A stretch of 63,047 nt of DNA, counting the filler, from Babesia bigemina (lineage: Eukaryota), in the NCBI RefSeq assembly GCF_000981445.1. It is 6 parts of 6 records of this genome, joined end to end, with 100 filler letters (N's around TTAATTAATTAA, not from the genome) between each part and the next. Parts side by side here need not be neighbours in the genome. Positions count along the whole stretch, not along the records: positions 59,660 to 63,047 come from NW_012237205.1; 5 more parts are not named here. One strand, written 5' to 3'. Below the pieces are notes generated by a model, which ran no database searches, was not told the origin of the DNA, and saw only the letters and a list, made by a program, of their open reading frames with translations. This document shows positions 4,662 to 63,047 of the stretch, piece after piece. Positions within the stretch are counted from its first letter, which is position 1, and every line of letters starts with the position of its first letter. The position numbers and the translations under genes were made by a program.

Positions 4662-5161
4662 GAGCGATGTGTAGTGGATAAAGGAGCGATGTAGAGTGGA
4701 TAAAGGGGCGATGTAGAGTGGATAAAGGGGCGATGTAGAGTGGATAAAGGGGCGATGTAGAGTGGGTAAAGGGGCGATGTAGAGTGGGTAAGGGAGCGAT
4801 GTAGAGTGGATTAGGGAGCGATGTGGAGTGGGTTAAGGGGCGATGTAGAGTGGATAAAGGGGCGATGTAGAGTGGGTAAAGGGGCGATGTAGAGTGGGTT
4901 AAGGGGCGATGTAGAGTGGGTTAAGGAGCGATGTAGAGTGGGTTAAGGGGCGATGTAGAGTGGGTTAAGGGGCGATGTAGAGTGGATAAAGGGGCGATGT
5001 AGAGTGGGTAAAGGGGCGATGAGGAGTGGTTAAGGGGCGATGTAGAGTGGGTTAGGGAGCGATGTAGAGTGGGTTAGGGAGCGATGTAGAGTGGGTAAAG
5101 GGGCGATGTAGAGTGAGTTAGGGAGCGATGTAGAGTGGATAGAGGAGCGATGTAGAGTGGA
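4662..5161 (-). repeat. 22-bp minisatellite array upstream of ves gene
   Basis: Tandem GGCGATGTAGAGTGGATAAAGG variants on + strand (CCACTCTACATCGCCCCTTTAT in gene orientation). Confidence 0.95.
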
Positions 5162-5179
5162 TGATAATCACTAACTTTG

Positions 5180-5609
5180 TCACCATGTCATCGCTGCCGT
5201 AACCATGTCACCGCTGCCTTGACCATGTCCTCGCTGCCGTAACCATGTCATCGCTGCCGTTACCATGTCATCTGCTTGGTAACCATGTCATCGCTGCTGT
5301 GACCATAACCATGTCATCGCTGCCGTCACATGTAATCGCTGCCGTAACCATGTCATCGCTGCCGTAACCATGTCATCGCTGCCGTGTCCATCTCATCGCT
5401 GCCGTGACCATGTCATCGCTGCCGTAACCATGTCATCGCTGCCGTGTCCATCTCATCGCTGCCGTAACCATGTCATCGCTGCCGTAACCATCTCATCGCT
5501 GCCGTGACCATGTCATCGCTGCCGTTACCATGTCATCGCTGCCGTGACCATGCCATCGCTGTCGTGACCATGTCATCGCTGTCGTGACCATGTCATCGCT
5601 GTCGTGACC
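5180..5609 (-). repeat. 20-bp minisatellite array
   Basis: Tandem ACCATGTCATCGCTGCCGTG/A. Confidence 0.95.
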
Positions 5610-5970
5610 ATCAACTTGGTCAGCACTTTGGTCAGCACTTTGGTCAACACCTTGGTCAACACGTTGGTCGTGGCATTGGTCACCACGTTGGTCACCACGT
5701 TGGTCAACACGTTGGTCAGCACGTTGGTCACCACGTTGGTCAGCACGTTGGTCAGCACTTTGGTCAGCACGTTGTTCATCACTTTGGTCAGCACATTGGT
5801 CAGCACTTTGGTCACCACTTTGGTCAACACTTTGGTCACCACTTTGGTCAGCACCTTGGTCAGGTGCTTGGTCACCACCTTGGTCATGGCATTGGTTATG
5901 ACATTGGTCAGCACTTTGGTCAGCACGTTGGTCAACACTTTGGTCACCACTTTGGTCAACACTTTAGTTA
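5610..5970 (-). repeat. 12-bp minisatellite array
   Basis: Tandem TTGGTCAGCACT / TTGGTCACCACG variants. Confidence 0.95.
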
Positions 5971-11020: not shown

Positions 11021-11341
11021 AGCGATGTAGAGTGGGTTAAGGGGCGATGTAGAGTGGGTAAAGGGGCGATGTAGAGTGGATAAAGGGGCGATGGAGAGTG
11101 GGTTAGGGAGCGATGTGGAGTGGGTAAAGGGGCGATGAAGGGTGGGTAAAGGGGCGATGTAGAGTAGATAAGGGGCGATGTAGAGTGGGTTAAGGGGCGA
11201 TGTAGAGTGGGTTAAGGGGCGATGCAGAGTGGATAAAGGGGCGATGTAGAGTGGGTTAGGCAGCGATGTAGAGTGGATAAAGGGGCGATGTAGAGTGGGT
11301 TAAGGGCGATGTAGAGTGGGTTAAGGGCGATGTGGAGTGGA
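11021..11341 (-). repeat. 22-bp minisatellite array
   Basis: Tandem GCGATGTAGAGTGGGTTAAGGG variants. Confidence 0.95.
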
Positions 11342-11369
11342 TGATAATCACTACTTATGTCAGATGCTT

Positions 11370-11638
11370 GGTCACCATGTCATCGCTGCCGTAACCGAGA
11401 CATCGCTGCCGAAACCACTGTCATCGCTGCCGTGACCAAGACATCGCTGCCGTGACCATGTCATCGCTGCCGTGACCATGTCACCGCTGCCGTAACCATG
11501 TCATCGCTGCCGTGACCATGTCATCGCTGCCGTTACCATGTCATCGCTGCCGTTACCATGTCATCGCTGCCGTGACCATGTCATCGCTGCCGTGACCATG
11601 TCATCGCTGCCGTAACCATGTCATCGCTGCCGTGACCA
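11370..11638 (-). repeat. 20-bp minisatellite array
   Basis: Tandem ACCATGTCATCGCTGCCGTG. Confidence 0.95.
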
Positions 11639-12418
11639 CTAACTTGGTCACCACGTTGGTCACCACGTTGGTCAGCACCTTGGTTGACACGTTGGTCAAC
11701 ACGTTGGTCAACACATCGGTCAACACGTTGGTCAGCACGTTGGTCAGCACTTTGGTCAGCACATTGGTCAGCACATTGGTCACCACGTTGGTCACCACGT
11801 TGGTCATGGCATTGGTCACCACTTTGGTCATGGCATTGGTCACCACTTAGGTCAACACTTTGGTCAGCACATTGGTCAGCACATTGGTCACCACGTTGGT
11901 CACCACGTTAGTCGTGGCATTGGTCATGGCATTGGTCAGCACGTTGGTCACCACGTTAGTCGTGGCATTGGTCATGGCATTGGTCAGCACTCTGGTCAGC
12001 ACATTGGTCAGCGTTTAGGTCAACACTTTGGTCAGCACCTTGGTCAGCACATTGGTCAACACGTTGGTCAACACATTGGTCAACACTTTGGTCAGCGCCT
12101 TGGTCATGGCATTGGTCAGCACATTGGTCAGCACTTTGGTCATGGCATTGGTCATGGCATTGGTCAGCACTTAGGTCAGGTGCTTGGTCACCACTTTGGT
12201 CAACACTTTAGTCACCACTCTGGTCATGGCATTGGTCAGCACTTTGGTCAGTTGTTTGGTCAGCACATTGGTCATGGCATTGGTCAGCACTTTGGTCATG
12301 GCATTGTTCAGCACTTTGGTCAGCACCTTGGTCAGCACTTTGGTCAACACTTTGGTCAACACGTTGGTCAGCACCTTGATCACCACGTTGGTCAGCACAT
12401 TGGTCACCACTTTAGTTA
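11639..12418 (-). repeat. 12-bp minisatellite array
   Basis: Tandem TTGGTCAGCACA / TTGGTCATGGCA variants. Confidence 0.95.
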
Positions 12419-17434: not shown

Positions 17435-17534
17435 NNNNNNNNNNNNNNNNNNNNNNNNNNNNNNNNNNNNNNNNNNNNTTAATTAATTAANNNNNNNNNN
17501 NNNNNNNNNNNNNNNNNNNNNNNNNNNNNNNNNN
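17435..17534. other. Artificial contig spacer (44 N + TTAATTAATTAA + 44 N)
   Basis: Six-frame stop linker within an N run, 100 nt. Confidence 0.97.
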
Positions 17535-19886: not shown

Positions 19887-19986
19887 NNNNNNNNNNNNNN
19901 NNNNNNNNNNNNNNNNNNNNNNNNNNNNNNTTAATTAATTAANNNNNNNNNNNNNNNNNNNNNNNNNNNNNNNNNNNNNNNNNNNN
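19887..19986. other. Artificial contig spacer
   Basis: N run with TTAATTAATTAA. Confidence 0.97.
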
Positions 19987-20027: not shown

Positions 20028-20850
20028 GGATGTAGAGTGGATAAAGGAGCGATGTAGAGTGGGTTAGGGAGCGATGTAGAGTGGATAAGGGGCGATGTAG
20101 AGTGGATAAGGGAGCGATGTGGAGTGGGTTAGGGAGCGATGTAGAGTGGGTTAAGGGGCGATGTAGAGTGGATTAGGGAGCGATGTAGAGTGGATAAAGG
20201 GGCGATGTAGAGTGGATAAAGGAGCGATGTGGAGTGGATAAAGGAGCGATGTAGAGTGGGTTAGGGAGCGATGTAGAGTGGGTTAAGGGGCGATGTAGAG
20301 TGGGTTAGGGAGCGATGAAGAGTGGATAAAGGGGCGATGTAGAGTGGGTAAGGGAGCGATGTAGAGTGGGTTATGGAGCGATGTAGAGTGGATTAAGGGG
20401 CGATGTAGAGTGGATAAAGGAGCGATGTAGAGTGGGTAAAGGGGCGATGTAGAGTGGGTAAGGGAGCGATGTGGAGTGGATGATAAATACCACTCTGATC
20501 ACCATGTCATCGCTGCCGTGACCATGTCATCGCTGCCGTGTCCATGTCATCGCTGCCGTGACCATGTCATCGCTGCCGTGTCCATGTCATCGCTGCCGTA
20601 ACCATGTCATCGCTGCCGTGACCATGTCATCGCTGCTGTGTCCATGTCATCGCTGCCGTGACCATGTCATCGCTGCCGTGACCATCAACTTGGTCAACAC
20701 GTTGGTCAGCACGTTGGTCAGCACGTTGGTCATGGCATTGGTCAGCACCTTGGTCACCACTTTGGTCACCACTTTGGTCATGGCATTGGTCACCACTCTG
20801 GTCATGGCATTGGTCAGCACTTTGGGCAGCATCTTGATCAGCATTTTAGT
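20028..20850 (-). repeat. Composite array: 22-mer (20028-20481), 20-mer (20500-20685), 12-mer (20686-20850)
   Basis: Same three units in the same order as elsewhere; the conserved start motif of a further minus-strand gene is visible at ~19990-20024. Confidence 0.93.
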
Positions 20851-24132: not shown

Positions 24133-24232
24133 NNNNNNNNNNNNNNNNNNNNNNNNNNNNNNNNNNNNNNNNNNNNTTAATTAATTAANNNNNNNNNNNN
24201 NNNNNNNNNNNNNNNNNNNNNNNNNNNNNNNN
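24133..24232. other. Artificial contig spacer
   Basis: N run with TTAATTAATTAA. Confidence 0.97.
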
Positions 24233-33298: not shown

Positions 33299-33582
33299 GT
33301 GACCAACGTGCTGACCAATGCCATGACCAGAGTGGTGACCAATGCCATGACCAAAGTGCTGACCAAAGTGATGACCAACGTGGTGACCAGAGTGGTGACC
33401 AAGGTGATGACCAAAGTGCTGACCAATGCCATGACCAACGTGCTGACCAATGCCATGACCAAAGTGTTGACCAATGCCACGACCAAAGTGGTGGCCTATG
33501 TGCTGACCAAGGTGCTGACCAAAGTGCTGACCAATGTGCTGACCAACGTGATTACCAAGTTATGGTCACGGCAGCGGTGACA
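33299..33582 (+). repeat. 12-bp array followed by the start of a 20-bp array
   Basis: GACCAAAGTGCT / GACCAATGCCAT units, then GGTCACGGCAGCGGTGACA. Confidence 0.92.
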
Positions 33583-33682
33583 NNNNNNNNNNNNNNNNNN
33601 NNNNNNNNNNNNNNNNNNNNNNNNNNTTAATTAATTAANNNNNNNNNNNNNNNNNNNNNNNNNNNNNNNNNNNNNNNNNNNN
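33583..33682. other. Artificial contig spacer
   Basis: N run with TTAATTAATTAA. Confidence 0.97.
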
Positions 33683-35005
33683 TACATCGCTCTTAACCCA
33701 CCCTACATCGCCCTTTGTCCACTCTACATCGCTCTTAACCCACCCTACATCGCCCCTTAACCCACTGTACATCGCTCCCTAATCCACTCTACATCGCTCC
33801 CTAATCCACTCTACATCGCTCCCTAATCCACTCTACATCGCTCCCTAATCCACTCTACATCGCTCCCTAACCCACTCCACATCGCTCCCTAATCCACTCT
33901 ACATCGCCCCTTTATCCACTCTACATCGCCCCTTTACCCACTCTACATCGCTCCCTAACCCACTCTACATCGCTCCTCTATCCACTCTACATCGCCCCTT
34001 TTTCCACCTTACATCGCCCCTTTATCCACTCTACATCGCCCCTTTACCCACTCTACATCGCCCCTTAATCCACTCTACATCGCCCCTTTACCCACTCTAC
34101 ATCGCCCCTTAATCCACTCCACATCGCTCCTTTATCCACTCTACATCGCCCCTTTATCCACTCCACATCGCTCCTTGACCCACCTTATATCGCTCCCTAA
34201 CCCACTCTACATCGCTCCCTAACCCACTCTACATCGCTCCCTAACCCACTCTACATCGCTCCCTAACCCTGTCTACATCGCCCCTTTATCCACTCCACAT
34301 CGTCCCTTAACCCACTCTACATCGCCCCTTTATCCACTCCACATCGCTCCCTAACCCACTCCACATCGCCCCTTTACCCACTTTACATCGCTCCTCTACC
34401 CACTCCACATCGCTCCTTTATCCACTTTACATCGCCCCTTCATCCACTCTACATCGCCCCTTAACCCACTCCACATCGCCCCTTTATCCACTCTACATCG
34501 CCCCTTTATCCACTCTACATCGCTCCCTTATCCACTCTACATCGCCCCTTTATCCACTCTACATCGCTCCCTTATCCACTCTACATCGCCCCTTTATCCA
34601 CTCTACATCGCTCCTTTATCCACTCTACATCGCCCCTTTACCCACTCTACATCGCCCCTTTACCCACTCTACATCGTTGCCTAACCCACTCCACATCGCT
34701 CCCTAACCCACTCTACATCGCCCCTTTATCCACTCTACATCGCCCCTTTATCCACTCCACATCGCTCCCTAACCCACTCTACATCGCTCCTCTATCCACT
34801 CTACATCGCCCCTTTATCCACTCCACATCGCTCCTCTATCCACTCTACATCGCTCCCTAACCCACTCTACAACGCCCCTTAACCCACTCTACATCGCCCC
34901 TTAACCCACTCTACATCGCCCCTTTATCCACTCCACATCGCTCCCTATCCACTCTACATCGCCCCTTAACCCACTCTACATCGCCCCTTTATCCACTCTA
35001 CATCC
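33683..35005 (+). repeat. 22-bp minisatellite array (~1.3 kb)
   Basis: Tandem CCACTCTACATCGC(C/T)CCT(T/A)... units. Confidence 0.96.
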
Positions 35006-40869: not shown

Positions 40870-41158
40870 CAAAGCAATGTGTTGACCTAGCAACCAGGCA
40901 AAGTGCTATGCTAGCAACCAGGCAAAGTGCTAACCTAGCACGCAGGTAAAGTGCTAAGCAAGCAACCAGGCAAAGTGCTGAGCTGGCAACCAGGCTAAGT
41001 GCTGAGCTGGCAACCAGGCAAAGTGCTAAGCTAGCACCCAGGCAAAGTACTAAGCAAGCAACCAGGCAAAGTGCTAAGCTGGCACACAGGCAAAGTGCTA
41101 AGCTAGCACCCAGGCAAAGTGCTAAGCTAGCAACCAGGCTAAGTGGTAAGCTGGCACC
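40870..41158 (+). repeat. 21-bp minisatellite array
   Basis: CCAGGCAAAGTGCTAAGCTAGCA-type units. Confidence 0.95.
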
Positions 41159-41169
41159 TGACCAAGTTA

Positions 41170-41600
41170 TGGTCACGGCAGCGATGACATGGTCACGGCA
41201 GCGATGACATGGTCACGGCAGCGATGACATGGTTACGGCAGCGATGACATGGTCTCGGCAGCGGTGACATGGTCACGGCAGCGATGACATGGTTACGGCA
41301 GCGATGACAGTTGATGGTCACGGCAGCGATGACAGTTGATGGTCACGGCAGCGATGACAGTTGATGGTCACGGCAGCGATGACAGTTGATGGTCACGGCA
41401 GCGATGACAGTTGATGGTCACGGCAGCGATGACAGTTGATGGTCACGGCAGCGATGACAGTTGATGGTCACGGCAGCGATGACAGTTGATGGTCACGGCA
41501 GCGATGACAGTTGATGGTCACGGCAGCGATGACATGGACACAGCAGCGATGACATGGACACGGCAGCGATGACATGGACACGGCAGCGATGACATGGTGA
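41170..41600 (+). repeat. 20-bp array containing a run of 25-bp variant units
   Basis: GGTCACGGCAGCGATGACAT and GGTCACGGCAGCGATGACAGTTGAT. Confidence 0.95.
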
Positions 41601-41617
41601 CCAGAGTGGTGAGTATT

Positions 41618-43668
41618 ATCCACTCCACATCGCCCCCTAACCCACTCTACATCGCTCCCTAACCCACCCTACATCGCTCCCTTATCCACTCCACATCGCC
41701 CCTTTACCCACTCTACATCGCTCCTCTATCCACTCTACATCGCCCCTTAACTCACTCTGCATCGCTCCCTAATCCACTCTACATCGCCCCTTAACCCACT
41801 CTACATCGCCCCTTTAACCACTCTACATCGCTCCTTCATCCACTCTACATCGCTCCCTAACCCACTCTACATCGCTCCCTAACCCACTCTACATCGCTCC
41901 TTAACCCACTCTACATCGCCCCTTTATCCACTCTACATCGCCTCTTTATCCACTCCACATCGCTCCCTAATCTACTCCACATCGCCCCTTTATCCACTCT
42001 ACATCGCCCCTTATCCACTCTACATCGCCCTTTATCCACTCTACATCGCCCCTTTATCCACTCTACATCGCTCCTTAACCCACTCTACATCGCCCCTTTA
42101 TCCACTCTACATCGCCCCTTATCCACTCCACATCGCCCCTTTATCCACTCTACATCGCTCCTTAACCCACTCTACATCGCCCCTTATCCACTCCACATCG
42201 CCCCTTTATCCACTCTACATCGCCCCTTATCCACCCTACATCGCTCCCTTATCCACTCTACATCGTCCCTTTACCCACTCTACATCGCTCCTTTATCCAC
42301 TCTACATCGCCCCTTTATCCACTCTACATCGCCCCTTAACCCACTCTACATCGCCCCTTTATCCACTCTACATCGCCCCTTTATCCACTCTACATCGCTC
42401 CTTAACCCACTCCACATCGCTCCTTATCCACTCTACATCGCTCCTTAACCCACTCCACATCGCCCCTTAACCCACTCTACATCGCTCCCTTATCCACTCT
42501 ACATCGCCCCTTTATCCACCCTACATCGCTCCCTAACCCACTCCACATCGCCCCTTTACCCACTCTACATCGCCCCTTTATCCACTCTACATCGCTACTT
42601 AACCCACTCTTCATCGCTCCCTAACCCACTCTACATCGCTCCCTAACCCACTCTACATCGCTACTTAACCCACTCTTCATCGCTCCCTAACCCACTCTAC
42701 ATCGCTCCTTTACCCACTCTACATCGCTCTTTAACCCACTCCACATCGCTCCCTAATCCACTCCACATCGCCCCTTTATCCACTCTACATCGCTCCCTTA
42801 TCCACTCCACATCGCCCTTTACCCACACTACATCGCTCCTTTATCCACTCTACATCGCTCCCTAACCCACTCCACATCGCTCCTTAACCCACTCTACATC
42901 GCCCCTTTACCCACTCTACATCGCCCCTTTATCCACTCTACATCGCCCCTTAATCCACTCTACATCGCCCCTTTATCCACTCTACATCGCCCCTTAATCC
43001 ACTCTACATCGCCCCTTATCCACTCCACATCGCTCCTTAACCCACTCTACATCGCCCCTTTATCCACTCTACATCGCTCCTTTATCCACTCTACATCGCC
43101 CCTTTATCCACTCTACATCGCTCCCTTATCCACTCTACATCGCCCCTTAACCCACTCTACATCGCTCCTTAACCCACTCTACATCGCTCCTTTACCCACT
43201 CCACATCGCTCCCTAACCCACTCTACATCGCCCCTTTATCCACCCTACATCGCTCCCTAACCCACTCTACATCGCTCCCTAACCCACTCCACATCGCCCC
43301 TTATCCACTCTACATCGCCCCTTTATCCACTCCACATCGCTCCCTTATCCACTCTACATCGCTCCCTTATCCACTCTACACCGCCCCTTTATCCACTCTA
43401 CATCGCCCCTTTATCCACTCCACATCGCTCCCTAACCCACTCTACATCGCTCCTCTATCCACTCTACATCGCCCCTTTATCCACTCCACATCGCTCCTCT
43501 ATCCACTCTACATCGCTCCCTAACCCACTCTACAACGCCCCTTAACCCACTCTACATCGCTCCTTATCCACTCTACATCGCCCCTTTATCCACTCTACAT
43601 CGCCCCTTAACCCACTCTACATCGCCCCTTTACCCACTCTACATCGCTCCTTAACCCACTCTACATCC
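41618..43668 (+). repeat. 22-bp minisatellite array (~2 kb)
   Basis: Tandem CCACTCTACATCGCCCCTTTAT variants. Confidence 0.96.
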
Positions 43669-49447: not shown

Positions 49448-50528
49448 AAAGCTAAGTGCTTAGCTAGCATCCAAGCTAAGTGCTAAGCAAGCACACAAGT
49501 TACGTGTTAACCTAGCACCCAGGCAAAGTGCTAAGCTAGCATTCAGGCAAAGTGCTAAGCTAGCACCCAGGCAAAGTGCTAAGCTAGCAACCAGGCAAAG
49601 TGGTAAGGTAGCAACCAAGTTAAGTGCTAAGCAAGCACACAAGCAACGTGTTGACCTACCATCCAGGCAACGTGCTGACCTAGCAAACAGGCGAAATGGT
49701 AAGCTAGCAACCAGGCGAGGTGCTAACCTAGCAACCAGGCAACGTGTTAAGCTAGCAGCCAGGCAAAGTGCTAACCTAGCATCTAGGCAAAGTGCAAAGC
49801 TAGCACCCAGGCAAAGTGCTAAGCTAGCACCCAGGCAAAGTGCTAAGCTAGCACACAGGCAAAGTGGTAAGCTAGCACTCAGGCAAAGTGCTAAGCAAGC
49901 ATCCACGCAACGTGTTAAGCTGGCAACCAGGCAAAGTGTTGACCTAGCAACCAGGCAAAGTGCTAAGCTAGCAACCAGGCAAAGTGCTAAGCTAGCAACC
50001 AGGCAAAGTGCTAACCTAGCACCCAGGCAAAGTGCTAACCTAGCACCCAGGCTAAGTGCTAACCTAGCAGCCAGGCGAGGTGCTAACCTAGCAACCAGGC
50101 AACGTGTTAAGCTAGCAGCCAGGCAAAGTGCTAACCTAGCATCTAGGCAAAGTGCAAAGCTAGCACCCAGGCAAAGTGCTAAGCTAGCACCCAGGCAAAG
50201 TGCTAAGCTAGCACCCAGGCTAAGTGCTAACCTAGCAGCCAGGCAAAGTGCTAAGCTAGCACCCAGGCTAAGTGTTGACCTAGCACCCAGGCTAAGTGCT
50301 AAGCTAGCATCCAGGCAAAGTGCTAAGCTGGCAACCAGGCAACGTGTTGACCAATGCCATGACCAAAGTGCTAAGCTAGCACTCAGGCAAAGTGGTGACC
50401 TAGCACCCAGGCAAAGTGGTAAGCGAGCACTCGAGCTAAGTGCTAAGCAAGCACCCAGGCAAAGTGGTAAGCTAGCACACAGGCAACGTGTTGAGGTGGC
50501 ACCCAGGCAAAGTGTTAACCTAGCACCT
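49448..50528 (+). repeat. 21-bp minisatellite array
   Basis: CCAGGCAAAGTGCTAAGCTAGCA-type units. Confidence 0.95.
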
Positions 50529-50539
50529 CACCAAGTTAG

Positions 50540-51698
50540 TGGTCACGGCAGCGATGACATGGTCACGGCAGCGATGACATGGTTAAGGCAGCGATGACAT
50601 GGTCACGGCAGCGATGACATGGTTAAGGCAGCGATGACATGGACACGGCAGCGATGTCTTGGTCACGGCAGCGATGACATGGTTACGGCAGCGATGTCTT
50701 GGTCACGGCAGCGATGTCTTGGTCACGGCAGCGATGTCTTGGTCACGGCAGCGATGACATGGCTACGGCAGCGATGACATGGTTACGGCAGCGATGACTG
50801 GTCACGGCAGCGGTGAAATGGTTACGGCAGCGATGACATGGTCACGGCAGCGATGACATGGTCACGGCAGCGATGACATGGTTACGGCAGCGATGACATG
50901 GTTACGGCAGCGATGACATGGTTACGGCAGCGATGAGATGGTTACGGCAGCGATGACATGGTTACGGCAGCGATGACATGGTTACGGCAGCGATGACATG
51001 GTTACGGCAGCGATGAGATGGTTACGGCAGCGATGACATGGTTACGGCAGCGATGACATGGTTACGGCAGCGATGACATGGTCACGGCAGCGATGACATG
51101 CTTACGGCAGCGATGACATGGTCACGGCAGCGATGTCTTGGTTACGGCAGCGATGACATGGTTACGGCAGCGATGACATGCTTACGGCAGCGATGACATG
51201 CTTACGGCAGCGGTGACATGGTCACGGCAGCGATGACATGGACACGGCAGCGATGACATGCTTACGGCAGCGATAACATGGTCACGGCAGCGATGACATG
51301 GTCACAGCAGCGATGTCTAGGTTACGGCAGCGATGACATGGCTACGGCAGCGATGACATGGTTACGGCAGCGATGACTGGTCACGGCAGCGGTGAAATGG
51401 TTACGGCAGCGATGACATGGTCACAGCAGCGATGTCTAGGTTACGGCAGCGATGACATGGCTACGGCAGCGATGACATGGTTACGGCAGCGATGACTGGT
51501 CACGGCAGCGGTGAAATGGTTACGGCAGCGATGACATGGTCACGGCAGCGATGACATGGTCACGGCAGCGATGACATGGTCACGGCAGCGATGACATGGT
51601 CACGGCAGCGATGACTGGTCACGGCAGCGATGACATGGTCACGGCAGCGATGAGATGGTCACGGCAGCGATGATATGGTCACGGCAGCGATGACAGTG
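50540..51698 (+). repeat. 20-bp minisatellite array (~1.15 kb)
   Basis: GGTYACGGCAGCGATGACAT units. Confidence 0.96.
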
Positions 51699-51730
51699 GT
51701 GACCAAGTTGATGACCTAAGTGATGATTAT

Positions 51731-51876
51731 CACCCACTCTACATCACCCTTAACCCACTCTACATCGCCCCTTTACCCACTCCACATCGCTCCCTTTATC
51801 CACTCTACATCGCTCCCTAATCCACTCTACATCGCCCCTAATCCACTCTACATCGCCCCTTAATCCACTCTACATC
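51731..51876 (+). repeat. Short 22-bp array
   Basis: About 6-7 CCACTCTACATCGC units. Confidence 0.92.
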
Positions 51877-54900: not shown

Positions 54901-57571
54901 ACAGGTCGCGCAGTCCTCGACGTCGACGCTAAATGGCGAAGCATATCTTCAGCAATTCCGACAATTATCGGAGAAATTCCACGCCTACTATAATAACGTT
55001 GACATTTATGTCGACAACCAAGTTAAAGATCCAACCTCCCCCCCGCCCACCGACCAAACCACCGACCCAGCCACCCAGCTAACCAAAATCAAAACTGACT
55101 TCGACAATTTACTTGGACATCTTAAAAGTAATGGTGATCGTAATAGAATATATAATTATGATAAAAAGTTCGTTGACCTACATTCTTCCCTCTCCACCTC
55201 CCTCCACCTCCTATCCCCCTCCGCCTTCGCCAACCCCCGGCACCCGGAGCTGCTCGATGCGGTCAGACAGGGGCTGCAGGGGTTTGTCGAGCAGATGGAG
55301 CGGGTGTATGTGAACGGGTATGATGGAGGGGAAGGGATTACATGGATGAAAAGTGATAATAAAACGTTAACCGACGATGCTGAAAAATGTGCCAAAATTT
55401 TTCTCACTTGTCTGCCGGGTCTGAACAAGCATCTCAACCACCTCCGGATGCATTGTGACAGGGATCCCAAAACAGGTCCTTGGAATAAATTACAGATCAA
55501 TAGAGCGAACACTAATAACATGATAGGCCTTTGGTTTGACTGCCGTGGTTACAGGGTTTCTTCGGAACAATCGAAGCAGGATGGAGAGTTGCGGAACAAA
55601 TCGGAGTGCAACGGTAATCATATTCACGGTTTCCTCGTTAACAAAAATGACAAAAATTATCTTTTCGAACACGATGAAGCCGATAAAGATAGTCGTCCAC
55701 TCAGAAAGCTTCTCGGCTACCTCAACACCTATTACCAGGTCACCCACCTGCAGCACATCTCGTCACCTAAGGCCCCGCGCAACGTGTATCAGATGCTCCA
55801 GTGGCTGAGTGGGCTGCAGTATAATGGTGTGTATGGTAAAATTCGAAACTATTTTGGCGATTTGTTTACTGAGCTGCAAAGTGATTACAAGTTAGCGAAA
55901 GCAGAGTTAGCCGTTACCAGGCCGCACGACCTGAGAGGTGTAGTAACAGACAATATAGTGCGATCAAGTTGCCTATCTACTGCACTTAGCAATGTTTGCA
56001 AATATGCCGAAGTTGTATTAATCGCCATTCTCGGCCACGGTCATGGCCATCCGCATAGCCGATACGCCGTTGACTTCAACACCAACGCGGATAATCTAGG
56101 CTATCCTAGTAGCGCCGCTTCATGCTTTGATATGCTGGTAGATATATCGTATCGAGTGTATCACCAACTGTGTTTCCTGCACAGACAGTGTGAAAATCAC
56201 GATGACAGCGGCGGCTGGCGATCATGTCATTACGGCAAGGGCGTCGATGGGTCATCATGGAACTGCAATACCACCAAATGTCCTAACCAAATATGTGACC
56301 AAAGAGCTAACCAAATTGCCCAGCAAAAGGCTGACCAAAAAGCTGACCAAACGTGTGACCAACACCCTAAGTGCGGTTTGAAATCGCCACTTCAGTCATT
56401 TTTGGAAGATGGTCTCCCCGGCTTCTTACCGCATCAGTTTACTAGTCCCGGTTGTAAGTTAACGTGCACTGTGGCCAATCATGGAGGCATCCCGTGCAAA
56501 ACTCCAATGGGCTTTACTGATCTAGCCACCATGGCGTCACGTTCGCAGACAGGCGAGGAACTCAAGAAGGCGCTGGAAGAATTCAGCGCCGAAATCCATG
56601 ATCCGCTTACCATTTTCTGCACCTTCCTAACATGTGTTCTCCGCAGGTCTCCGCAAACGCTGGGAGATATGTTTGCGTTCTTCTACGGTTATCTTCATCA
56701 TTTTGCCGAAAGTGAGCACAAGAAGAAAGCCTTTGATGCCGCCGTAAAGGATGCCATCTTTGGTCAGGAATACAATGATCTCAACCCATCAAAGATGTTT
56801 GGCACTAGTCGTCATGGTCAAGGTACGGAGCATTCCAGAGGTGACGTGTTCAGCATCGTCGAATGTTTTGCTGGCGACGAAGAAATATGTGGGTTCTACC
56901 TCCAGTCACTGAGCTTTAATATTTATAATATATTTTCGGAATGCCATAAGAACCACTATCTGTCATGGATTGTCTATCTCACAGAGACATTCTACAATCT
57001 TCTCTGCAAATTGCGTGACGACTGCCGCAATAATTGCAACAAGCCAGGAACCAGGTGTCAGGGTAAGATATGCGCTAAGAACTGTCAAGTACAATCTAGA
57101 TATAAAATCAAAAAGGAAGTGTGGGCGTGGACTATTAGTCACGAAAAGGATTGCCAATCCATCGCTCAGTGTCCGCTAACTCTACCCACATTAAATAGAT
57201 ATGGATTTGCATTTTGGAGTGCATATAGTCTTAGCAACAACAAGCATCAGAAAAGAACATGTGAAGACTTTTGCAAAGCATTGAATAATGTGCTGAGCGA
57301 CAAAGAATCGAAACACGCCCCTCTTGCCGAATTGGTATTCAGGACCATCCCCGAATTCCTTTTCAAAATCCGCGAACCCTTCATCTGGCTCAACGTCGCG
57401 CTCTGGCTCCTCTCCCTCCTCTATCTCCTCCACATCATGGTCATCCGCCTAGACCTCCTCCACATCAAATCGCATTTGCACTCACCATCATCACATCGCA
57501 TCGCTGCTCAGTCACTACTTGCTGCTGCTCGCGTTAACAAGCTTAACAGGGTGTTTTATCTGCAACCATAA
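51905..57571 (+). CDS. ves1: ves1/VESA1-like protein, 1888 aa (class I tail)
   Basis: MTSINH leader, LGELAGKLGGFVGES, SDLDRLCD, FLEDGLPGFLPH, TM, ARVNKLNRVFYLQP. Confidence 0.88.
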   Translation: MTSINHHNNLYLVTLPFPSSKSQALKSVEEKIVQLGELAGKLGGFVGESESVKKAVVKAIIAQINSNEELKNLYSSHVTTLSESVNSVGKADDTDEISELKQKVADQIKLLKERELQLQNQLKDPSSSPSPSADSAELHSKLEALRKVEKLCEFYEKLKTMPNEPKKLLENLCDGLQTFLGFDSASKGYDGSGIVYSDLDRLCDGVMGFLSGVLGAVKDDDAVKTYDKDTTKNINTVIKTLNDNIGSGRAGLVESVAEVKGWLEGYELEYSKKASNVTEFLGELKSNIAGKYTSQIRAGEKLTRQLEEWRRIVENIQSDIKTIETNYVIYLDDELRCKIRSEIILVKKSVEVLRDSACNISVNEQAKHVDTHLDEQKRNLEKAVTDGSENVKRTLQINFTKILDAMYDLREQRKHHFEKCYERLREANKHLKSRLDKYSGTTRDEIFRLFDEIIKEVKKIYGDMNYKKGELEMLVEGAEKTLSELSKNFEKDVKAGVKQDLTALNGNVNALKNGMRSISNGHEIVGKALTQLSASKQQLLRTTDPITQNSEALVGKYNEDLKKKFYTFAEALKAAKLDTFQTELQAESRKLRNYFENLMKISTIQKVSTSGRSEVKDLVEELNGAIGTINQRYDSLSTASLVVTTNAFASAVNTAAGAINRLGTIIKQEFTQAKQTIDDTKDNKELLTAVDELKNLQLLQNSIYGERGTADAPKTGSLAKLIEELSTAIGTTSGDDGGKLNKAIGAFETSAKQQIIDAATSAIEKAAAQVTAEMQKFREEDGGVFSKTELGKKVAVLKTHIKTLEGFIKEKTQGTLHLKLNEIQKDLDMLDKLKIEDTNEEHDGGINKMKKAADKKMQELYNEIFDKVNAVFNTLNDADRNLTHTIDIVSEGVHSAYAASTKSVENIKEYLLSVTSQAFDTVTSAVRILFSEQHVADLGGLKTLVDGQLRKMEQIIQKDRRTAIKGLLQNLNGRTYIVKAGKYPRFEMPSGTSMLDAIIQVAQSSTSTLNGEAYLQQFRQLSEKFHAYYNNVDIYVDNQVKDPTSPPPTDQTTDPATQLTKIKTDFDNLLGHLKSNGDRNRIYNYDKKFVDLHSSLSTSLHLLSPSAFANPRHPELLDAVRQGLQGFVEQMERVYVNGYDGGEGITWMKSDNKTLTDDAEKCAKIFLTCLPGLNKHLNHLRMHCDRDPKTGPWNKLQINRANTNNMIGLWFDCRGYRVSSEQSKQDGELRNKSECNGNHIHGFLVNKNDKNYLFEHDEADKDSRPLRKLLGYLNTYYQVTHLQHISSPKAPRNVYQMLQWLSGLQYNGVYGKIRNYFGDLFTELQSDYKLAKAELAVTRPHDLRGVVTDNIVRSSCLSTALSNVCKYAEVVLIAILGHGHGHPHSRYAVDFNTNADNLGYPSSAASCFDMLVDISYRVYHQLCFLHRQCENHDDSGGWRSCHYGKGVDGSSWNCNTTKCPNQICDQRANQIAQQKADQKADQTCDQHPKCGLKSPLQSFLEDGLPGFLPHQFTSPGCKLTCTVANHGGIPCKTPMGFTDLATMASRSQTGEELKKALEEFSAEIHDPLTIFCTFLTCVLRRSPQTLGDMFAFFYGYLHHFAESEHKKKAFDAAVKDAIFGQEYNDLNPSKMFGTSRHGQGTEHSRGDVFSIVECFAGDEEICGFYLQSLSFNIYNIFSECHKNHYLSWIVYLTETFYNLLCKLRDDCRNNCNKPGTRCQGKICAKNCQVQSRYKIKKEVWAWTISHEKDCQSIAQCPLTLPTLNRYGFAFWSAYSLSNNKHQKRTCEDFCKALNNVLSDKESKHAPLAELVFRTIPEFLFKIREPFIWLNVALWLLSLLYLLHIMVIRLDLLHIKSHLHSPSSHRIAAQSLLAAARVNKLNRVFYLQP

Positions 57572-57693
57572 TCGTACTCACGTGTTTACTAGCTACACTC
57601 ACCTAGCATATCACCTACTCACCTAACTTATGAATTGTGCTTTAATCTGTTGTATCACACATTAACCGTTGTATGTGATTGTGTAATAGTTAA

Positions 57694-58422
57694 CTAAAGT
57701 GCTGACCAAGCACCTGACCAAAGTGGTGACCAAAGTGGTGACCTAGTGAGTGACCAACGTGATGACCAACGTGTTGACCAAGTTGATGGACACGGCAGCG
57801 ATGACATGGTTACGGCAGCGATGACATGGTGACGGCAGCGATGACATGAACACGGCAGCGAAGTCTTGGTTACGGCAGCGATGACATGGTCACGGCAGCG
57901 ATGACATGGTTACAAGTGGTGATTATTATCCACTCTACATCGCCCCTTTATCCACTCCACATCGCTCCTTTATCCACTCTACATCGCCCCTAACCCGCTC
58001 CACATCGCTCCTTAACCCACTCTACATCGCCCCTTAATCCACTCTACATCGCTCCTCTATCCACTCTACATCGCTCCCTAACCCACTCTACATCGCTCCC
58101 TAACCCACTCTACATCGCTCCTTAACCCACTCTACATCGCCCCTTTATCCACTCTACATCGCTCCCTAATCCACTCTACATCGCCCCTTTATCCACTCTA
58201 CATCGCTCCCTAATCCACTCTACATCGCTCCCTAACCCACTCCACATCGCTCCCTAACCCACTCTACATCGCCCCTCTATCCACTCTACATCGCTCCTTA
58301 TCCACTCCACATCGCCCCTTTACCCACTCTACATCGCTTCTTTACCCACTCCACATCGCTCCCTAACCCACTCTACATCGCCCCTTTATCCACCCTACAT
58401 CGCCCCTTTATCCACTCCACAT
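57694..58422 (+). repeat. Composite array: 12-mer (57694-57782), 20-mer (57787-57913), 22-mer (57928-58422)
   Basis: Same units and order as the other intergenic regions. Confidence 0.93.
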
Positions 58423-58451
58423 TCCTTGAATTACTTCGCCATATTAACGCT

Positions 58452-59559
58452 ATGACCTCTATAAACCATCCTAATAACTTGTGCCTTGTCACCCTTTACT
58501 TCCCCTCTTCCACCGCTTGCCACTGCCCTGACCGTGTGCCGCCTAGGGAGCTTGGCATGAAATTTGACAAAATTTTGAACCTCAAAATTACCTTAAATAA
58601 TAACCCTACTAACATCCTTAATAACCTCTGCACCGGCCTCGAAACCTTCCTCGGCTTCAACTCTGCTTCCAAAGGCTACGACGGCTCTGGCATTGTGTAC
58701 TCCGACCTGGATAGGCTGTGTGACGGGGTGATGGGATTTTTGAGTGGTGTTCTCAGTAACATCAAAGAGCATTTAGGGCAGCATAAAGATATTATTCAGC
58801 CTGTAATTGATACACTTAACACCAATAAACACGGCGGTAAAAAAGGTTTTAATGAAGCGATTGGAAGTGTGGTCGAAGGGGTGCGGGGGTATAATAAGGC
58901 AGTGGAGCAGTCTAATACCTCCATAAAAACTCCGATAAGAAATTTGTATAGCTACTTGAAACCTGAAAAAGGTGAGTTAACTATCGGTCTTAATGCTTTG
59001 CAGGTCACCGAGCAGCCTGGACAACACGTTGTCGACCAAGCCGAGAGGCTGGTGGCGACAACCCTTCAGAAATCTAAGCAATTTGACAGCGAACTTAAAC
59101 GCGTCGAAACACATATTAATGATCTAAATGCAAATTGTAAAACACTTGTAAATCACGCACGTAAGAATGTTAGCTATGAGACTAAGCGGCTGGAGGAGCT
59201 GTCGAAAAGCGGCAAGACCAGCATGACCGACATGGAGCGGAAAATCACCGACACGTGCCAGACGCTCAAGGAGGCCATCAAATCGGGTATAACGGCAGAA
59301 GTGGAAATCCTTGTTCGTGATTTGAAGAAAAAAGTATTCGATATTTTGATGCAACTTAAGGACATTAACGAGAAATTGAAGGAGTACGTTAGGAATCTTG
59401 ATCAGTGGATGTTGAAGGCAAACGCAGTGGCGAGCGAAGCTGCGGATGAAGCTAAATTCATAAATGGGAGACGGCCCGGATTGAAGATCAGAATGCAATA
59501 AAAAGATTGTGAGGGAACTGAACGAAAGAGCGGCGTGCTTTGCAGGTATATAGATGACG
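58452..59559 (+). CDS. ves1: ves1/VESA1-like protein, N-terminal part, truncated by contig end
   Basis: MTSINH leader, SDLDRLCD; body near-identical to 25292-26117; stop at 59501 follows apparent 1-nt read-end deletions. Confidence 0.8.
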
Positions 59560-59659
59560 NNNNNNNNNNNNNNNNNNNNNNNNNNNNNNNNNNNNNNNNN
59601 NNNTTAATTAATTAANNNNNNNNNNNNNNNNNNNNNNNNNNNNNNNNNNNNNNNNNNNN
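59560..59659. other. Artificial contig spacer
   Basis: N run with TTAATTAATTAA. Confidence 0.97.
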
Positions 59660-59950
59660 GTGTCGGCTAGGTGCCCAAATGTGATATTAACGATGGCTAC
59701 ATCGCTGCATATAAATGCCATTTAACCAGGCCAACTCGGATTACGCCACCGTGCCAGTGACTCGCAACACACGACTTAGGTCACCCGCCGCGGCGCTCAC
59801 GGACGCCTACGTTAGCAACCAATCACCCAGCCTCACGTGACACTGACTCAATGGGCAACGCGGACACCTCTCACAGTCAACGCACAACTCAACTCACCAG
59901 ACAATCAACGTGCTACAACACCTACTAAATTACGGTTCATCCGCCAGCTT
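59660..59950 (-). repeat. Conserved non-coding element (copy of 31230-31513)
   Basis: Reverse-complement alignment by eye. Confidence 0.85.
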
Positions 59951-60270
59951 CGCACTTTGCCTTGATGCCAGCTTATCACTTTGCCTGGGTGCCAGCTTAA
60001 CACTTTGCCTGGCTGCCAGCTTAACACTTTGCCTGGTTGCTAGGTCAGCACGTTGCCTGGTTGCCAGCTTAGCACTTTGCCTGGCTGCCAGCTTACCACG
60101 TTGTCTGGTTGGTAGGTTAGCACTTTGCCTGTGTGCTAGGTCGCCACGTTGCCTGAGTGCTAGCTTAGCACTTTGCCTGGGTGCTAGGTCAACACTTTGC
60201 CTGGTTGCTAGCTTAGCACTTTGCCTGGTTGCTAGCTTAGTACTTTGCCTGGTTGCTAGGTTAGCACGTT
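59945..60270 (-). repeat. 21-bp minisatellite array
   Basis: Tandem TGCTAGCTTAGCACTTTGCCTGG-type units on + strand. Confidence 0.95.
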
Positions 60271-60415
60271 GGATTGTCGTTCAGTCATCACCTACTTTAG
60301 CTGCTATTTAGTTCACAGGTTGCCGCAAGAGTAATTCGAGACATTAGACTACGTTTGTCGGTTAGGTGAGTAGGTGAGTAGTTACGTGAGTTGATGTGAG
60401 TTACAAATGTGACGA

Positions 60416-61450
60416 TCACGGTTGTAGATACGATATCTTGGCAAGCCTTCCGACTTGCGCTGCAGCCAACAGTGACTGCGCCGTTATTTTGTTCGACGAC
60501 GGTATCCTCAGGTGTGACCTGATGTGGAGCACATCCAGTCTGCCAATCATGACGCAAAGGAGGTACAGGAGGGATAGTGACCAAAGTGCGAGGACCATGT
60601 AGGTGAACGGTTCTCTGATGGTCCAAATGAAGTTGTCACATTCCTCAAATAATTTGGTGAAGTATTGCGATTTTAGCAGATTACTCAGTTGTGTATTGAA
60701 ACTAAGGCAGAATTTTCTGTTAGTTCCATACAGCGTTTTTGCGTCGCCAAAAGTGAACCCGTACTGGTAGAACGTAGTCATCACTCCACGACAGCTTATC
60801 AGTGCCTTGCACTTGCAGCTGTACTCGACACCATGCTTTCCCGGCTTGCACGAACATTTCGTACAACCGGAGCCTCCACAATCCATTTGCTGGAACGCAT
60901 CGAGCAACGATTTAAGGTAACTGTAGAATGTCCACGGCAGATATACAGCCCATGACAGGTAGAGATCGGCGTGCTTTTTGGCGAGGTACGTGTACGCATC
61001 GGAAGATGTGGAGCAGAGGTAGGGAGCACAGTGAATATCTTTGTTATGAGGTAGATCACATGATTCTCTTGACAGGCTTGACAAGTCAGCCTCCGTAGAT
61101 TTGGAATGGTCCGAACTGTTGTGGCCCGTTTGGTTGCGATATGCATTCTGCAGCGCACCTGTGAGTTTGCTTGTCTCCTTGTATAGCTCGATTGAGAGCG
61201 CTTTCGTTTTCGTTTGAAAAGCTAAGCTGACATCACTAGCGGCTTTAGCGTTATCTAACATATTACTTAAGGTCAACGCAAATTGGAAGTGCTCTGGCAA
61301 CGTAGATGGCGGCTTGGGCAGCAGACCGAACAGCGTGTTAATATTAGAATTGTCGAGGAATTTGGTCAGCACGTTACATATGTCCTTACCTGTCTTCGTG
61401 CTTCCAGAGAAACCTCTGAAGCCAAGTGGTGTTATACATGGCGCACCACC
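60416..61450 (-). pseudogene. ves1: 3' remnant of a ves1/VESA1-like gene (class II tail) interrupted by a retrotransposon
   Basis: Frame reads GAPCITPLGFRGFSGSTKTG...LPEHF...AQVGRLAKISYLQP; ves homology stops at ~61447-61450 and an in-frame stop lies at 61463-61465. Confidence 0.85.
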
Positions 61451-61452
61451 AG

Positions 61453-63047
61453 TTAAATTAAGTTATCTCATCTTATAGTGTGCTATGTGGCTACGTGCCT
61501 AGGGCCGGTTTTCGTGTTTGCGGGGCTAACGCCTCACGCTGAAACCGGTTGCGGGATCCACGCCGGTCCATTGCCGGACGTCACTGGTGCCATCCATGCG
61601 GGCATCCATCCAGTTTGGGCTTGAGGGTCTTCTACGGAATCGTAGTCTTCTTTCGGCTTCATATCCCTCATCACTATTTTATGTGTTTCTTGGATCACTA
61701 CCCTTTGTATGTGGGCTTCCATGCGATCCGATATGCCCAGGTCCCGTCTATACTTGCTGTGTTCTTTCGTCACTATTCCCTCCCACGTCATAACGTAGGG
61801 GATAACCCTGATCTTGGTGTGCTGGTTAAACTGTCGCGCCTTGAGGTCCTCAATAAGGTCTTCATACTTCTGCTTCTTGAACTTCTCCGTATCCACTAGG
61901 TTGTCTTGATTGGTGATTCCTATCTCCACGATGGTTATGGTGTTCCTCCGCCGATCCGCCAGGATGATGTCTGGCCTGTTGTATTCCTTAGTCTTCTGAG
62001 TCTTGACCGTCTTGTCGTACGCGATCCATCCGTATTTTCCATGTACTTCACTCTCGATCTTGTGGGCGTCTATCTTCTCCTTGGGTAGTCCTATTTGCCT
62101 CCCGAGTACTGAGTGGACCCGTTTTGCTACCTCGTTGTGCCTCTTCGTATATTCTAGGTGTAGTAGTTTCTGGCACTTCGTCGCGAGGTGATCCACGTTC
62201 TTGCCGTTGTTGCATCTTGTGCATTTCTTGGACGAAGACATCCATTGCAGATTCCTATCCTGGACTTCCGCTACGTTCGCTTCTTCTTCCGGAGTGAGTA
62301 TTCCACACGTCAGGTACAAGGACGACGCCTCAATGTCCAGCTTGGGGTCCTCACGCTTGGCATACAGAACCTTATGAGTTGATTTTACGTGCATTCTGTT
62401 GTACAGCCATTTGTTTTGGGCCACCCTGAGGTCCCTGAGGCTCTTGTCCGTAGTGTCCTCCATTCCGAATTCCATTCCATATCTTCCTTCCAGGTGCATC
62501 TTGATGTGAGATATGTGCGCGTATGTGTCGCGAAAATGCTGCATGATCGCAGCTCTCCTGGTTGACGTCACCTCGTCTGCTGAAAGCGTCAACCACAGTC
62601 GTAGCAGCATGGCTTCCGCTCTAAATACCATGCTGTGGAGCCCTCTCCCCATCTCTTTCCGGGGGAGGTAGAGCCTCTGTGTGTTCGCCCACTTCTTGTG
62701 TCCGTGCTTCGCGTTAATTATTCTCCGTACTGCCAGGTCGATCTTGTCGAAATGCGTGATGTCCATAGGGATCACGCCGATGTAGTAGTTGATGACGCTG
62801 AGGGCGTACTGGTTGATGGCCATCGAGAGGTTTTTCCCCGACAGCTTTGACGCAGCCAGTAGCTCCGTTCTCCTGCATATCTCCTGTAGTATTATGTCGA
62901 ACATTCCGTCGCTTGTCAGTGAGTTTGAAGTCTCTGTGACTCCCAAGTACTTGTACGTTTCCGGGCCTTCCATCTGCTTGGCGATGCTGGCGCACGCCTC
63001 CGTGTTGGTTGCCGACTTGTCGCGGTTGATCCTGAGTCCTATGTCGT
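61453..63047 (-). mobile_element. Non-LTR retrotransposon of the restriction-like endonuclease (RLE) type, R4-like; 3' portion including ~80-nt 3' UTR
   Basis: Domain order RT > CCHC > RHN > PD-(D/E)xK-like endonuclease, short 3' UTR with AT-rich end, abrupt junction with ves coding sequence. Confidence 0.9.
61534..63045 (-). CDS. Reverse transcriptase C-terminus, CCHC zinc knuckle and RLE endonuclease (5'-partial)
   Basis: Frame open to window end: DIGLRINRDKSATN...YKYLG (late RT motifs), RLYLPRKEMGRGL, CTRC..DHLATKC, YTKRHNEV, RPDIIL..TIVEIGIT..KKQKY. Confidence 0.92.
   Translation of the reverse strand, partial: DIGLRINRDKSATNTEACASIAKQMEGPETYKYLGVTETSNSLTSDGMFDIILQEICRRTELLAASKLSGKNLSMAINQYALSVINYYIGVIPMDITHFDKIDLAVRRIINAKHGHKKWANTQRLYLPRKEMGRGLHSMVFRAEAMLLRLWLTLSADEVTSTRRAAIMQHFRDTYAHISHIKMHLEGRYGMEFGMEDTTDKSLRDLRVAQNKWLYNRMHVKSTHKVLYAKREDPKLDIEASSLYLTCGILTPEEEANVAEVQDRNLQWMSSSKKCTRCNNGKNVDHLATKCQKLLHLEYTKRHNEVAKRVHSVLGRQIGLPKEKIDAHKIESEVHGKYGWIAYDKTVKTQKTKEYNRPDIILADRRRNTITIVEIGITNQDNLVDTEKFKKQKYEDLIEDLKARQFNQHTKIRVIPYVMTWEGIVTKEHSKYRRDLGISDRMEAHIQRVVIQETHKIVMRDMKPKEDYDSVEDPQAQTGWMPAWMAPVTSGNGPAWIPQPVSA

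What the first reader, a model, noticed from the sequence alone, without database searches (positions are those of the whole stretch)
61453..63047. RLE-type non-LTR retrotransposon with an intact reading frame in a piroplasm-like genome
Seen: an uninterrupted ~500-codon frame with late RT motifs (GLRINRDKS, YKYLG), a CCHC knuckle, the RHN motif and a PD..E endonuclease core, then a short 3' UTR ending ...ATAACTTAATTTAA. Established: this domain order defines R2/R4-group non-LTR elements, and Plasmodium, Theileria and B. bovis genomes are generally described as lacking transposable elements. Mammalian LINEs (L1, BovB) use an APE endonuclease, so this is not typical host contamination. Inference: a recently active retroelement family exists in this Babesia lineage.
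Basis: partly seen in the sequence, partly recalled or inferred. Interest (0 to 1): 0.92.

Follow-up and report, generated by a model that had tools for sequence, protein, structure and literature searches.

The report
Young retrotransposon inside Babesia antigen gene
This is the 3' third of a copy-and-paste jumping gene (a non-LTR retrotransposon) joined to the tail of a surface-antigen-like gene of a Babesia blood parasite; such elements were already reported in Babesia, but near-identical full-length copies suggest it likely jumped recently, and it likely came from a microsporidian-type donor.

Summary
Observation confirmed. 61534-63045 (-) is an open 503-codon frame, identical to residues 845-1347 of a 1347-aa single-ORF protein whose named cluster mates are Babesia bigemina. 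Full-length copies carry Pfam RVT_1. The knuckle-endonuclease part folds like R2 retrotransposon proteins (TM about 0.7). An 82-nt 3' UTR ends at 61452, abutting the 3' part of a ves-like gene. Relatives occur in B. ovata, B. caballi, B. divergens and Theileria equi, so it is parasite DNA, not contamination. The premise of surprise is overstated: LINE-like elements in these species (0.97% of the B. bigemina genome) were published in 2022. Not found in print by my searches: (1) full-length copies differ by 1-2 of 1347 residues, and the 3' end meets several different flanks, so activity is likely recent; (2) it looks R4/Dong-like rather than R2; (3) the Babesia and T. equi elements nest among microsporidian elements and share their N-terminal module, which points to horizontal transfer. 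One versus two piroplasm invasions is unresolved (AU p 0.12). No listed contig bridges this particular junction. Ongoing mobility is untested.

The parts
61534..63045 (-). 3' part of the element's single ORF (residues 845-1347 of a 1347-aa protein); runs off the window edge
   Evidence: 503 of 503 residues identical to P0122
62941..63039 (-). late reverse-transcriptase motifs (GLRINRDKS to YKYLG)
   Evidence: RVT_1 spans residues 640-881 of the full protein, E 5e-30
62134..62223 (-). CCHC zinc knuckle and RHN motif
   Evidence: C953, Y961 and H965 of P0246 invariant in 113 aligned relatives; C9, H17, C22 invariant in 72
61864..61974 (-). restriction-like endonuclease core, PD..E..K..KY
   Evidence: model of 61651-62238 matches seven R2 chains first, TM 0.67-0.75
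61452..61533 (-). 82-nt 3' UTR ending TTAATTTAAC; natural 3' end of the element (the last base or bases may belong to the target)
   Evidence: three other flanks join at 61452 in runs X1 and X3
60416..61451 (-). 3' part (about 345 codons) of a ves1-like variant surface antigen gene, cut off upstream by the element
   Evidence: 30-57% identical to the C-termini of 7 long ORFs in the window; three paralogs measured have 4.6-5.0 kb of coding DNA upstream of this point; Atlas nearest clusters carry VESA1_N on 14-79% of members
59946..60271 (.). 24-bp tandem array downstream of the ves-like gene; similar arrays follow other ves-like ORFs; not part of the element

Best explanation
This is the 3' third of a multi-copy, single-ORF non-LTR retrotransposon with a restriction-like endonuclease, resident in a Babesia genome and joined to the 3' part of a ves-like gene, into which it likely inserted recently by target-primed reverse transcription. 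Shown: domain order, fold, near-identical full-length copies, several 3' flanks, relatives in four other piroplasm species. Inferred from the R2 paradigm: the 1347-aa protein binds its own RNA at the short 3' UTR, the endonuclease nicks chromosomal DNA, and the freed 3' end primes cDNA synthesis. Inferred from the flanks: insertion is dispersed, with at most a short AT-rich preference, not rDNA-specific. Copies likely persist in the redundant ves arrays because they cost little there. The element is about 4.6 kb long (inferred from one collapsed contig). Inferred from trees: the lineage entered a Babesia ancestor horizontally from the microsporidia-rich branch of these elements and has since been passed down.
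For: Identity to P0122. RVT_1 E 5e-30. Full model pLDDT 87.8; its top seven Foldseek hits are R2 proteins, E 8e-28 to 2e-24, ahead of LINE-1. C-terminal model pLDDT 94, TM 0.67-0.75 to R2. Four distinct 1347-aa copies differ from each other's reference by 0-2 residues; three older copies by 24-38; two of the full-length sequences lie on contigs of 2.8 and 3.5 Mb. Three other flanks at 61452, and a 4608-nt contig starting there. Relatives over RT-endonuclease: B. ovata 79%, B. caballi 53%, B. divergens 52%, T. equi 42%. Pieces 99% alike in runs X2 and X4 from two further studies. Babesia rows form one clade, 100/100, inside a 100/99 clade with Hamiltosporidium, Vairimorpha and T. equi.
Against: No contig listed bridges the ves flank and the element (22 pieces listed, 2771 not shown). 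The 5' junction and any target-site duplication lie outside the window. Near-identity was measured on proteins only and could also come from gene conversion, segmental duplication of ves arrays or assembly collapse. No holder is on record as RNA, so expression is open. In the VIA-align search R2 (Z 31.5) and LINE-1 (Z 30.1) are close for the whole model. The tree was rooted on insect-type elements by assumption; of the 20 rows in the key clade 10 are unnamed or carry non-microsporidian labels.
Confidence: 0.8

Rival explanations
1. The family is real but no longer mobile: the near-identical copies arose by gene conversion or duplication of ves arrays, which recombine often.
For: ves1 loci undergo frequent gene conversion and change position between strains (PMC4066756 passages). 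No RNA evidence. An older, partly broken subfamily exists.
Against: Four different 3' flanks meet the element at the same base (window plus three), which fits separate insertions, not block duplication. All catalytic motifs are intact in four full-length copies apart from single substitutions.
Confidence: 0.12
2. The element is real, but this particular ves-element junction is an assembly chimera.
For: The window is a gapped scaffold (five linker gaps) that ends inside the repeat; no listed contig bridges the junction.
Against: The join has no N and falls exactly on the element's natural 3' end; 4 of 69 Babesia gene models with element sequence are fused to ves-like sequence, in three species.
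Confidence: 0.1
3. The DNA is contamination from a host, tick or co-sequenced microsporidian.
For: The nearest non-piroplasm relatives are microsporidian or unnamed metagenome proteins.
Against: Those relatives are only 42-46% identical over RT-endonuclease; all closer relatives are from other Babesia species and form one clade; copies lie on megabase contigs; no tick or mammal name appears among the 120 rows listed in each (most rows carry no name).
Confidence: 0.02
4. On origin only: the element was inherited vertically from a deep eukaryotic or alveolate ancestor, or came from an arthropod, not from a microsporidian.
For: RLE elements are an ancient group (PMC4640811 passages). Rows labelled mite, wasp, octopus and louse-associated sit in the same clade. 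Microsporidia hold several paralogous lineages, so their non-monophyly does not by itself give a direction.
Against: 42-51% identity between piroplasm and microsporidian elements is high for an alveolate-opisthokont split (my judgement). No other apicomplexan name appears in the listed hits. Holding the 9 named microsporidian rows together against Babesia is rejected, AU p 0.027 (group named after seeing the tree). A shared N-terminal module is found in 7 of 7 piroplasm and 0 of 7 insect-labelled proteins.
Confidence: 0.3

Closest known systems
LINE-like TEs of Babesia and Theileria equi (PMC9141347)
   Same: Same species set (B. bigemina, B. ovata, B. divergens, T. equi; absent from B. bovis, T. 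parva, T. annulata, T. orientalis, C. felis); their B. ovata and B. divergens models carry PF00078 and PTHR35450. Very probably this family; I did not compare their model sequences.
   Different: That paper calls them LINE-like or unknown, with three B. divergens copies classed R2 by MGEScan. It gives no endonuclease type, age, target or origin, and leaves one versus two invasions open.
[quoted passage not shown]
   Same: One ORF, RT then CCHC, RHN and restriction-like endonuclease; no N-terminal zinc fingers; a three-helix N-terminal module where R4/Dong have a diverged SANT/Myb domain (PMC7998251 passages).
   Different: No rDNA or (TAA)n target at the four 3' flanks seen; insect-labelled relatives are only 26-29% identical and lack the piroplasm-microsporidian N-terminal signature.
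R2 retrotransposons (R2Bm 8gh6, R2Tg 9dou)
   Same: Best structural matches for the whole protein and for the knuckle-endonuclease part; the mechanism is inferred from them.
   Different: 14-17% identity; no N-terminal zinc-finger pattern; not in 28S rDNA (no Rfam match in 55000-63047).
Microsporidian non-LTR elements (Hamiltosporidium, Vairimorpha, Dictyocoela, Enteropsectra)
   Same: Nearest named relatives outside piroplasms, 34-44% to the B. bigemina protein and up to 51% to T. equi; same clade. Microsporidian non-LTR elements are known (PMC3486916, PMC4202319 passages).
   Different: The Babesia clade sits on a long stem (0.66 changes per column) and has a longer, low-confidence N-terminal extension.

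Membership tests
RLE-type non-LTR retrotransposon | Non-LTR-type reverse transcriptase | tested here: met
   RVT_1 E 5e-30 with YIDD in the full-length protein; best solved relatives are R2 and LINE-1
RLE-type non-LTR retrotransposon | C-terminal CCHC knuckle, RHN motif and PD-(D/E)xK endonuclease after the RT | tested here: met
   fold matches R2, TM 0.67-0.75
RLE-type non-LTR retrotransposon | No APE endonuclease, integrase or RNase H | tested here: met
   Only RVT_1 at E up to 0.01 in the full protein
RLE-type non-LTR retrotransposon | Interspersed copies with a fixed 3' end | tested here: met
   four flanks at 61452 (and the window); 10-member cluster
RLE-type non-LTR retrotransposon | Target-site duplication and 5' truncation | not testable with these tools
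   5' end lies outside the window; no genome is held
R2 clade | N-terminal zinc finger(s) before the Myb domain | tested here: not met
   no C2H2 or CCHC pattern in residues 1-570; no zinc-finger Pfam on P0246
R2 clade | Insertion at a fixed 28S rDNA site | tested here: not met
   flank is ves-like coding DNA; no Rfam match
R4/Dong clade | Single ORF with RT and RLE, no N-terminal zinc fingers | tested here: met
R4/Dong clade | Diverged N-terminal SANT/Myb-like domain | tested here: inconclusive
   conserved three-helix module with two aromatic anchors, but Myb_DNA-bind_3 hit only 1 of 44 members, E 0.028; the module was not folded alone
R4/Dong clade | rDNA or microsatellite target | tested here: inconclusive
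   four 3' flanks differ and none is a long microsatellite; one shows a doubled AT-rich tail; too few sites, one end only
R4/Dong clade | RT phylogeny with curated R4, Dong, HERO, NeSL references | not testable with these tools
   no labelled reference elements were available; the insect rows in my trees are unclassified
ves1 gene family (flank) | Conserved C-terminal transmembrane and cytoplasmic domain | tested here: inconclusive
   shared by 7 paralogs in the window and matching VESA-labelled Atlas clusters at 0.95-0.97, recognition value below the strong-evidence mark; Pfam VESA1_N hit none of 10 ves-like ORFs or pieces scanned

The most novel reading that the evidence does not exclude
A retrotransposon crossed from microsporidia (or another tick- or arthropod-dwelling parasite) into piroplasms, possibly twice, and is still jumping in Babesia bigemina, where it lands in the variant-antigen arrays, breaking ves genes and supplying recombination anchors and a reverse transcriptase that could retro-copy ves transcripts. 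It would be a currently active retrotransposon in an apicomplexan, tied to antigenic variation.
Probability: 0.3. Interest if true: 0.72.

Novelty: already known. Interest (0 to 1): 0.42.

Why it matters
Most apicomplexan genomes have few or no transposable elements, and those described are mostly Gypsy remnants. A young, full-length, RLE-type family in Babesia makes three open points testable: whether any apicomplexan element is mobile today; whether piroplasm LINEs arose once or twice (left open in PMC9141347); and whether parasites sharing an arthropod host swap elements across kingdoms. Insertions in ves arrays could also serve as strain markers and may explain gene models that fuse reverse transcriptase to ves. 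The bare fact that Babesia has LINE-like elements is not new.

Tried and rejected
No whole genome is held, so copy number, 5' junctions and target-site duplications could not be counted. Pfam on the window part alone gave only a sub-threshold Cas9_C hit, treated as chance. No other element fragment in the window by tblastn or blastn. No RNA holder listed; run X4 is only guessed to be RNA, so it is not used as evidence of expression. Depths are contig depths and were not read as copy number. Preference for ves genes: 4 of 69 gene models fused to ves-like sequence, 7 more with flanks that matched no ves ORF of the window; this cannot separate targeting from tolerance. Monophyly of Babesia plus T. 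equi: not in the best tree, not rejected (AU p 0.116). A Myb fold for the N-terminal module was not shown; the whole-model VIA search barely tests that region. No ribozyme or other Rfam RNA in 55000-63047. The junction resembles the scaffold linker TTAATTAATTAA, but linkers here are always set in N runs and the junction has none: rejected as a linker artefact. Earlier findings: three look-ups, nothing. Paper searches found no study of clade, age, target or origin of the Babesia elements; subscription papers and Repbase are not covered.

Full report
Observation. The - strand from 63045 to 61534 is one open frame of 503 codons that runs off the window edge. Shuffled DNA of the same composition gave a longest frame of 133 codons on average and 353 at most in 1000 shuffles. 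After the stop come 82 nt ending ...ATAACTTAATTTAAC at 61452. No other fragment of the element is in the window.

The whole protein. A search for longer relatives found P0122, 1347 aa, identical over all 503 residues. Its 90% cluster has 10 members, and the 3 named ones are Babesia bigemina. The full protein has one Pfam domain, RVT_1 at 640-881, E 5e-30, with YIDD at 818, upstream of the window. An AlphaFold model of the 1165-aa form (pLDDT 87.8) matches R2 retrotransposon proteins first (seven chains, E 8e-28 to 2e-24), then LINE-1 ORF2p; VIA-align puts R2Tg at Z 31.5 and LINE-1 at Z 30.1, close together. The knuckle and endonuclease part folded alone (196 aa, pLDDT 94) matches only R2 chains below E 1e-5, TM 0.67-0.75. 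A profile of 44 relatives aligns to R2Tg across RT, knuckle and endonuclease, the last two weakly. So it is an RLE-type non-LTR retrotransposon.

Clade. There is no zinc-finger pattern in the first 570 residues and the flank is not rDNA, so it is not an R2 proper. R4/Dong elements are described as RT plus RLE with a diverged N-terminal SANT/Myb domain and no zinc fingers (PMC7998251, passages). The protein has a conserved three-helix module at about 245-310, but Pfam gave a Myb hit in only 1 of 44 relatives. R4/Dong-like is likely, not shown: I had no labelled reference elements.

Parasite DNA, not contamination. The six best hits of the first search are Babesia proteins (169 hits, 120 listed). 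Over RT to endonuclease the identities are B. ovata 79% (a second B. ovata lineage 48%), B. caballi 53%, B. divergens 52%, T. equi 42%. Two full-length sequences lie on contigs of 2.8 and 3.5 Mb. Of 24 listed runs 14 hold part of the stretch and 4 hold half or more of its words. X1 and X3 are one sample and may be the source; X2 and X4, from two other studies, carry pieces such as 385 nt with 2 differences and 497 nt with 3.

Age. Against P0242, the other full-length copies differ at 2, 1 and 2 of 1347 residues; two shorter models at 1 each; three older copies at 24, 35 and 38. In one search three contigs carry the element's end at exactly 61452 with flanks unlike the window's, and a 4608-nt contig begins there, which suggests an element of about 4.6 kb. 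With the window that makes four 3' flanks. One has a doubled AT-rich tail. The bases after TTTAAC differ, so there is no long fixed target. This supports a recent burst of dispersed insertion. It does not show present activity, and gene conversion could add to the likeness.

Insertion site. The frame 60416-61451 is 30-57% identical to the C-terminal part of 7 long ORFs in the window. The shared G-x-P-C-x-x-P-x-G-F motif starts at 61447, five bases from the element end, and the cysteine-rich stretch that precedes it in all 7 paralogs is replaced by element DNA; three paralogs measured have 4.6-5.0 kb of coding sequence upstream. The nearest Atlas clusters carry VESA1_N on 14-79% of members; Pfam VESA1_N itself hit none of the 10 ves-like ORFs or pieces scanned. 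So the element likely interrupts a ves1-like gene. No listed contig bridges this junction (2771 pieces not shown), so the join rests on the assembly. Of 69 Babesia gene models holding element sequence, 4, in three species, are fused to sequence like the window's ves ORFs; this shows recurrence, not targeting.

Origin. A quick tree of 77 rows and a careful tree of 38 hand-picked rows out of the roughly 350 proteins then held (711 columns, LG+C20) agree. Babesia rows form one clade (100/100). It lies in a 20-row clade (100/99) with T. equi, Hamiltosporidium, Vairimorpha and 10 unnamed or otherwise labelled rows, itself inside a 32-row clade (100/100) that also holds Enteropsectra and Dictyocoela elements; insect-type elements were used as the root. 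Forcing the 9 named microsporidian rows together against Babesia and the outgroup is rejected (AU p 0.027; named after seeing the tree). A profile of the N-terminal module built from 37 non-piroplasm rows hits 7 of 7 piroplasm proteins (E 1e-9 to 3e-16), 9 of 11 named microsporidian ones at E under 0.005 (two were in the training set) and 0 of 7 insect-labelled ones. T. equi is closer to microsporidian-type elements (up to 51%) than to Babesia (36-42%), and falls apart from Babesia in the careful tree, but one piroplasm clade is not rejected (AU p 0.116). Horizontal transfer from a microsporidian-type donor is my best reading, about 65%; direction and donor are inferred. Transfer of other TE classes between microsporidia and animals is reported (PMC4202319, passages).

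Mechanism. By the R2 paradigm (established knowledge, applied by inference): the protein binds the 3' UTR of its RNA, the endonuclease nicks the target, the 3' hydroxyl primes reverse transcription, and second-strand synthesis completes the copy. Nothing here was assayed.

What is in print. PMC9141347 (whole text; supplement passages) reports LINE-like TEs in B. bigemina (133,787 nt, 0.97%), B. ovata, B. divergens and T. equi, absent from B. bovis and other Theileria, and leaves one or two gains open. PMC10463595 (passages) notes RT-gene expansions in B. caballi and B. ovata. Term searches in PMC4066756, PMC3505731 and PMC5660447 found no mention of 'reverse transcriptase' in the main texts; their supplements were not read and may bear on this. 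PMC7313128, PMC4640811 and PMC3486916 were seen as passages. Nine searches found no paper on the clade, age, target or origin of these elements. The scan's earlier findings held nothing.

Verdict. The added value is the evidence for youth, ves insertion and a microsporidian-type origin. Interest 0.42; 0.72 if current mobility and transfer are both confirmed.

Noticed in passing
window 4664-5965, 11022-12410, 20029-20843, 33300-35004, 40887-43667, 49454-51876, 57715-58422: Stereotyped tandem arrays with 12-, 20-, 22- and 24-bp units recur in the same order between the ves-like ORFs, up to 94 copies. They could be recombination or regulatory tracts.
   Followed up: no
window 17435-17534, 19887-19986, 24133-24232, 33583-33682, 59560-59659: Five gaps, each two runs of 44 N around 12 bases (TTAATTAATTAA in the one read). 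Order across gaps is the assembler's.
   Followed up: partly
window 490-57571: Seven uninterrupted ves-like frames of 1276-2035 codons; Pfam VESA1_N hits none. PMC4066756 mentions a proposal that intron-poor ves1-alpha arose by retrotranscription; an endogenous RT like this one could have supplied it (speculation).
   Followed up: no
proteins P0251, P0269, P0240, P0153, P0084: Public gene models fuse element sequence to ves-like sequence (four) or to a myb-labelled gene (one), probably gene-calling across insertions.
   Followed up: partly
protein P0124: B. ovata holds a second, distant lineage of the element (48% to the B. bigemina protein against 79% for the first), so two lineages coexisted in Babesia.
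   Followed up: partly
proteins P0160, P0162, P0301, P0303, P0152, P0012, P0312: Elements labelled as mite, wasp, octopus or bacterial MAG fall inside the microsporidia-rich clade; they may be co-sequenced parasites or further transfers.
   Followed up: no
window 61537-63045: Third-position GC of the element frame is 0.67, against 0.45-0.55 in eight ves-like frames.
   Followed up: no
window 62221, run X3: A loose end reads like a cloning-vector polylinker (recalled, not tested), suggesting a clone library.
   Followed up: no
window 58236-59501: 5' part of another ves-like frame that stops 59 bases before an assembly gap; broken gene or sequencing error not settled.
   Followed up: no
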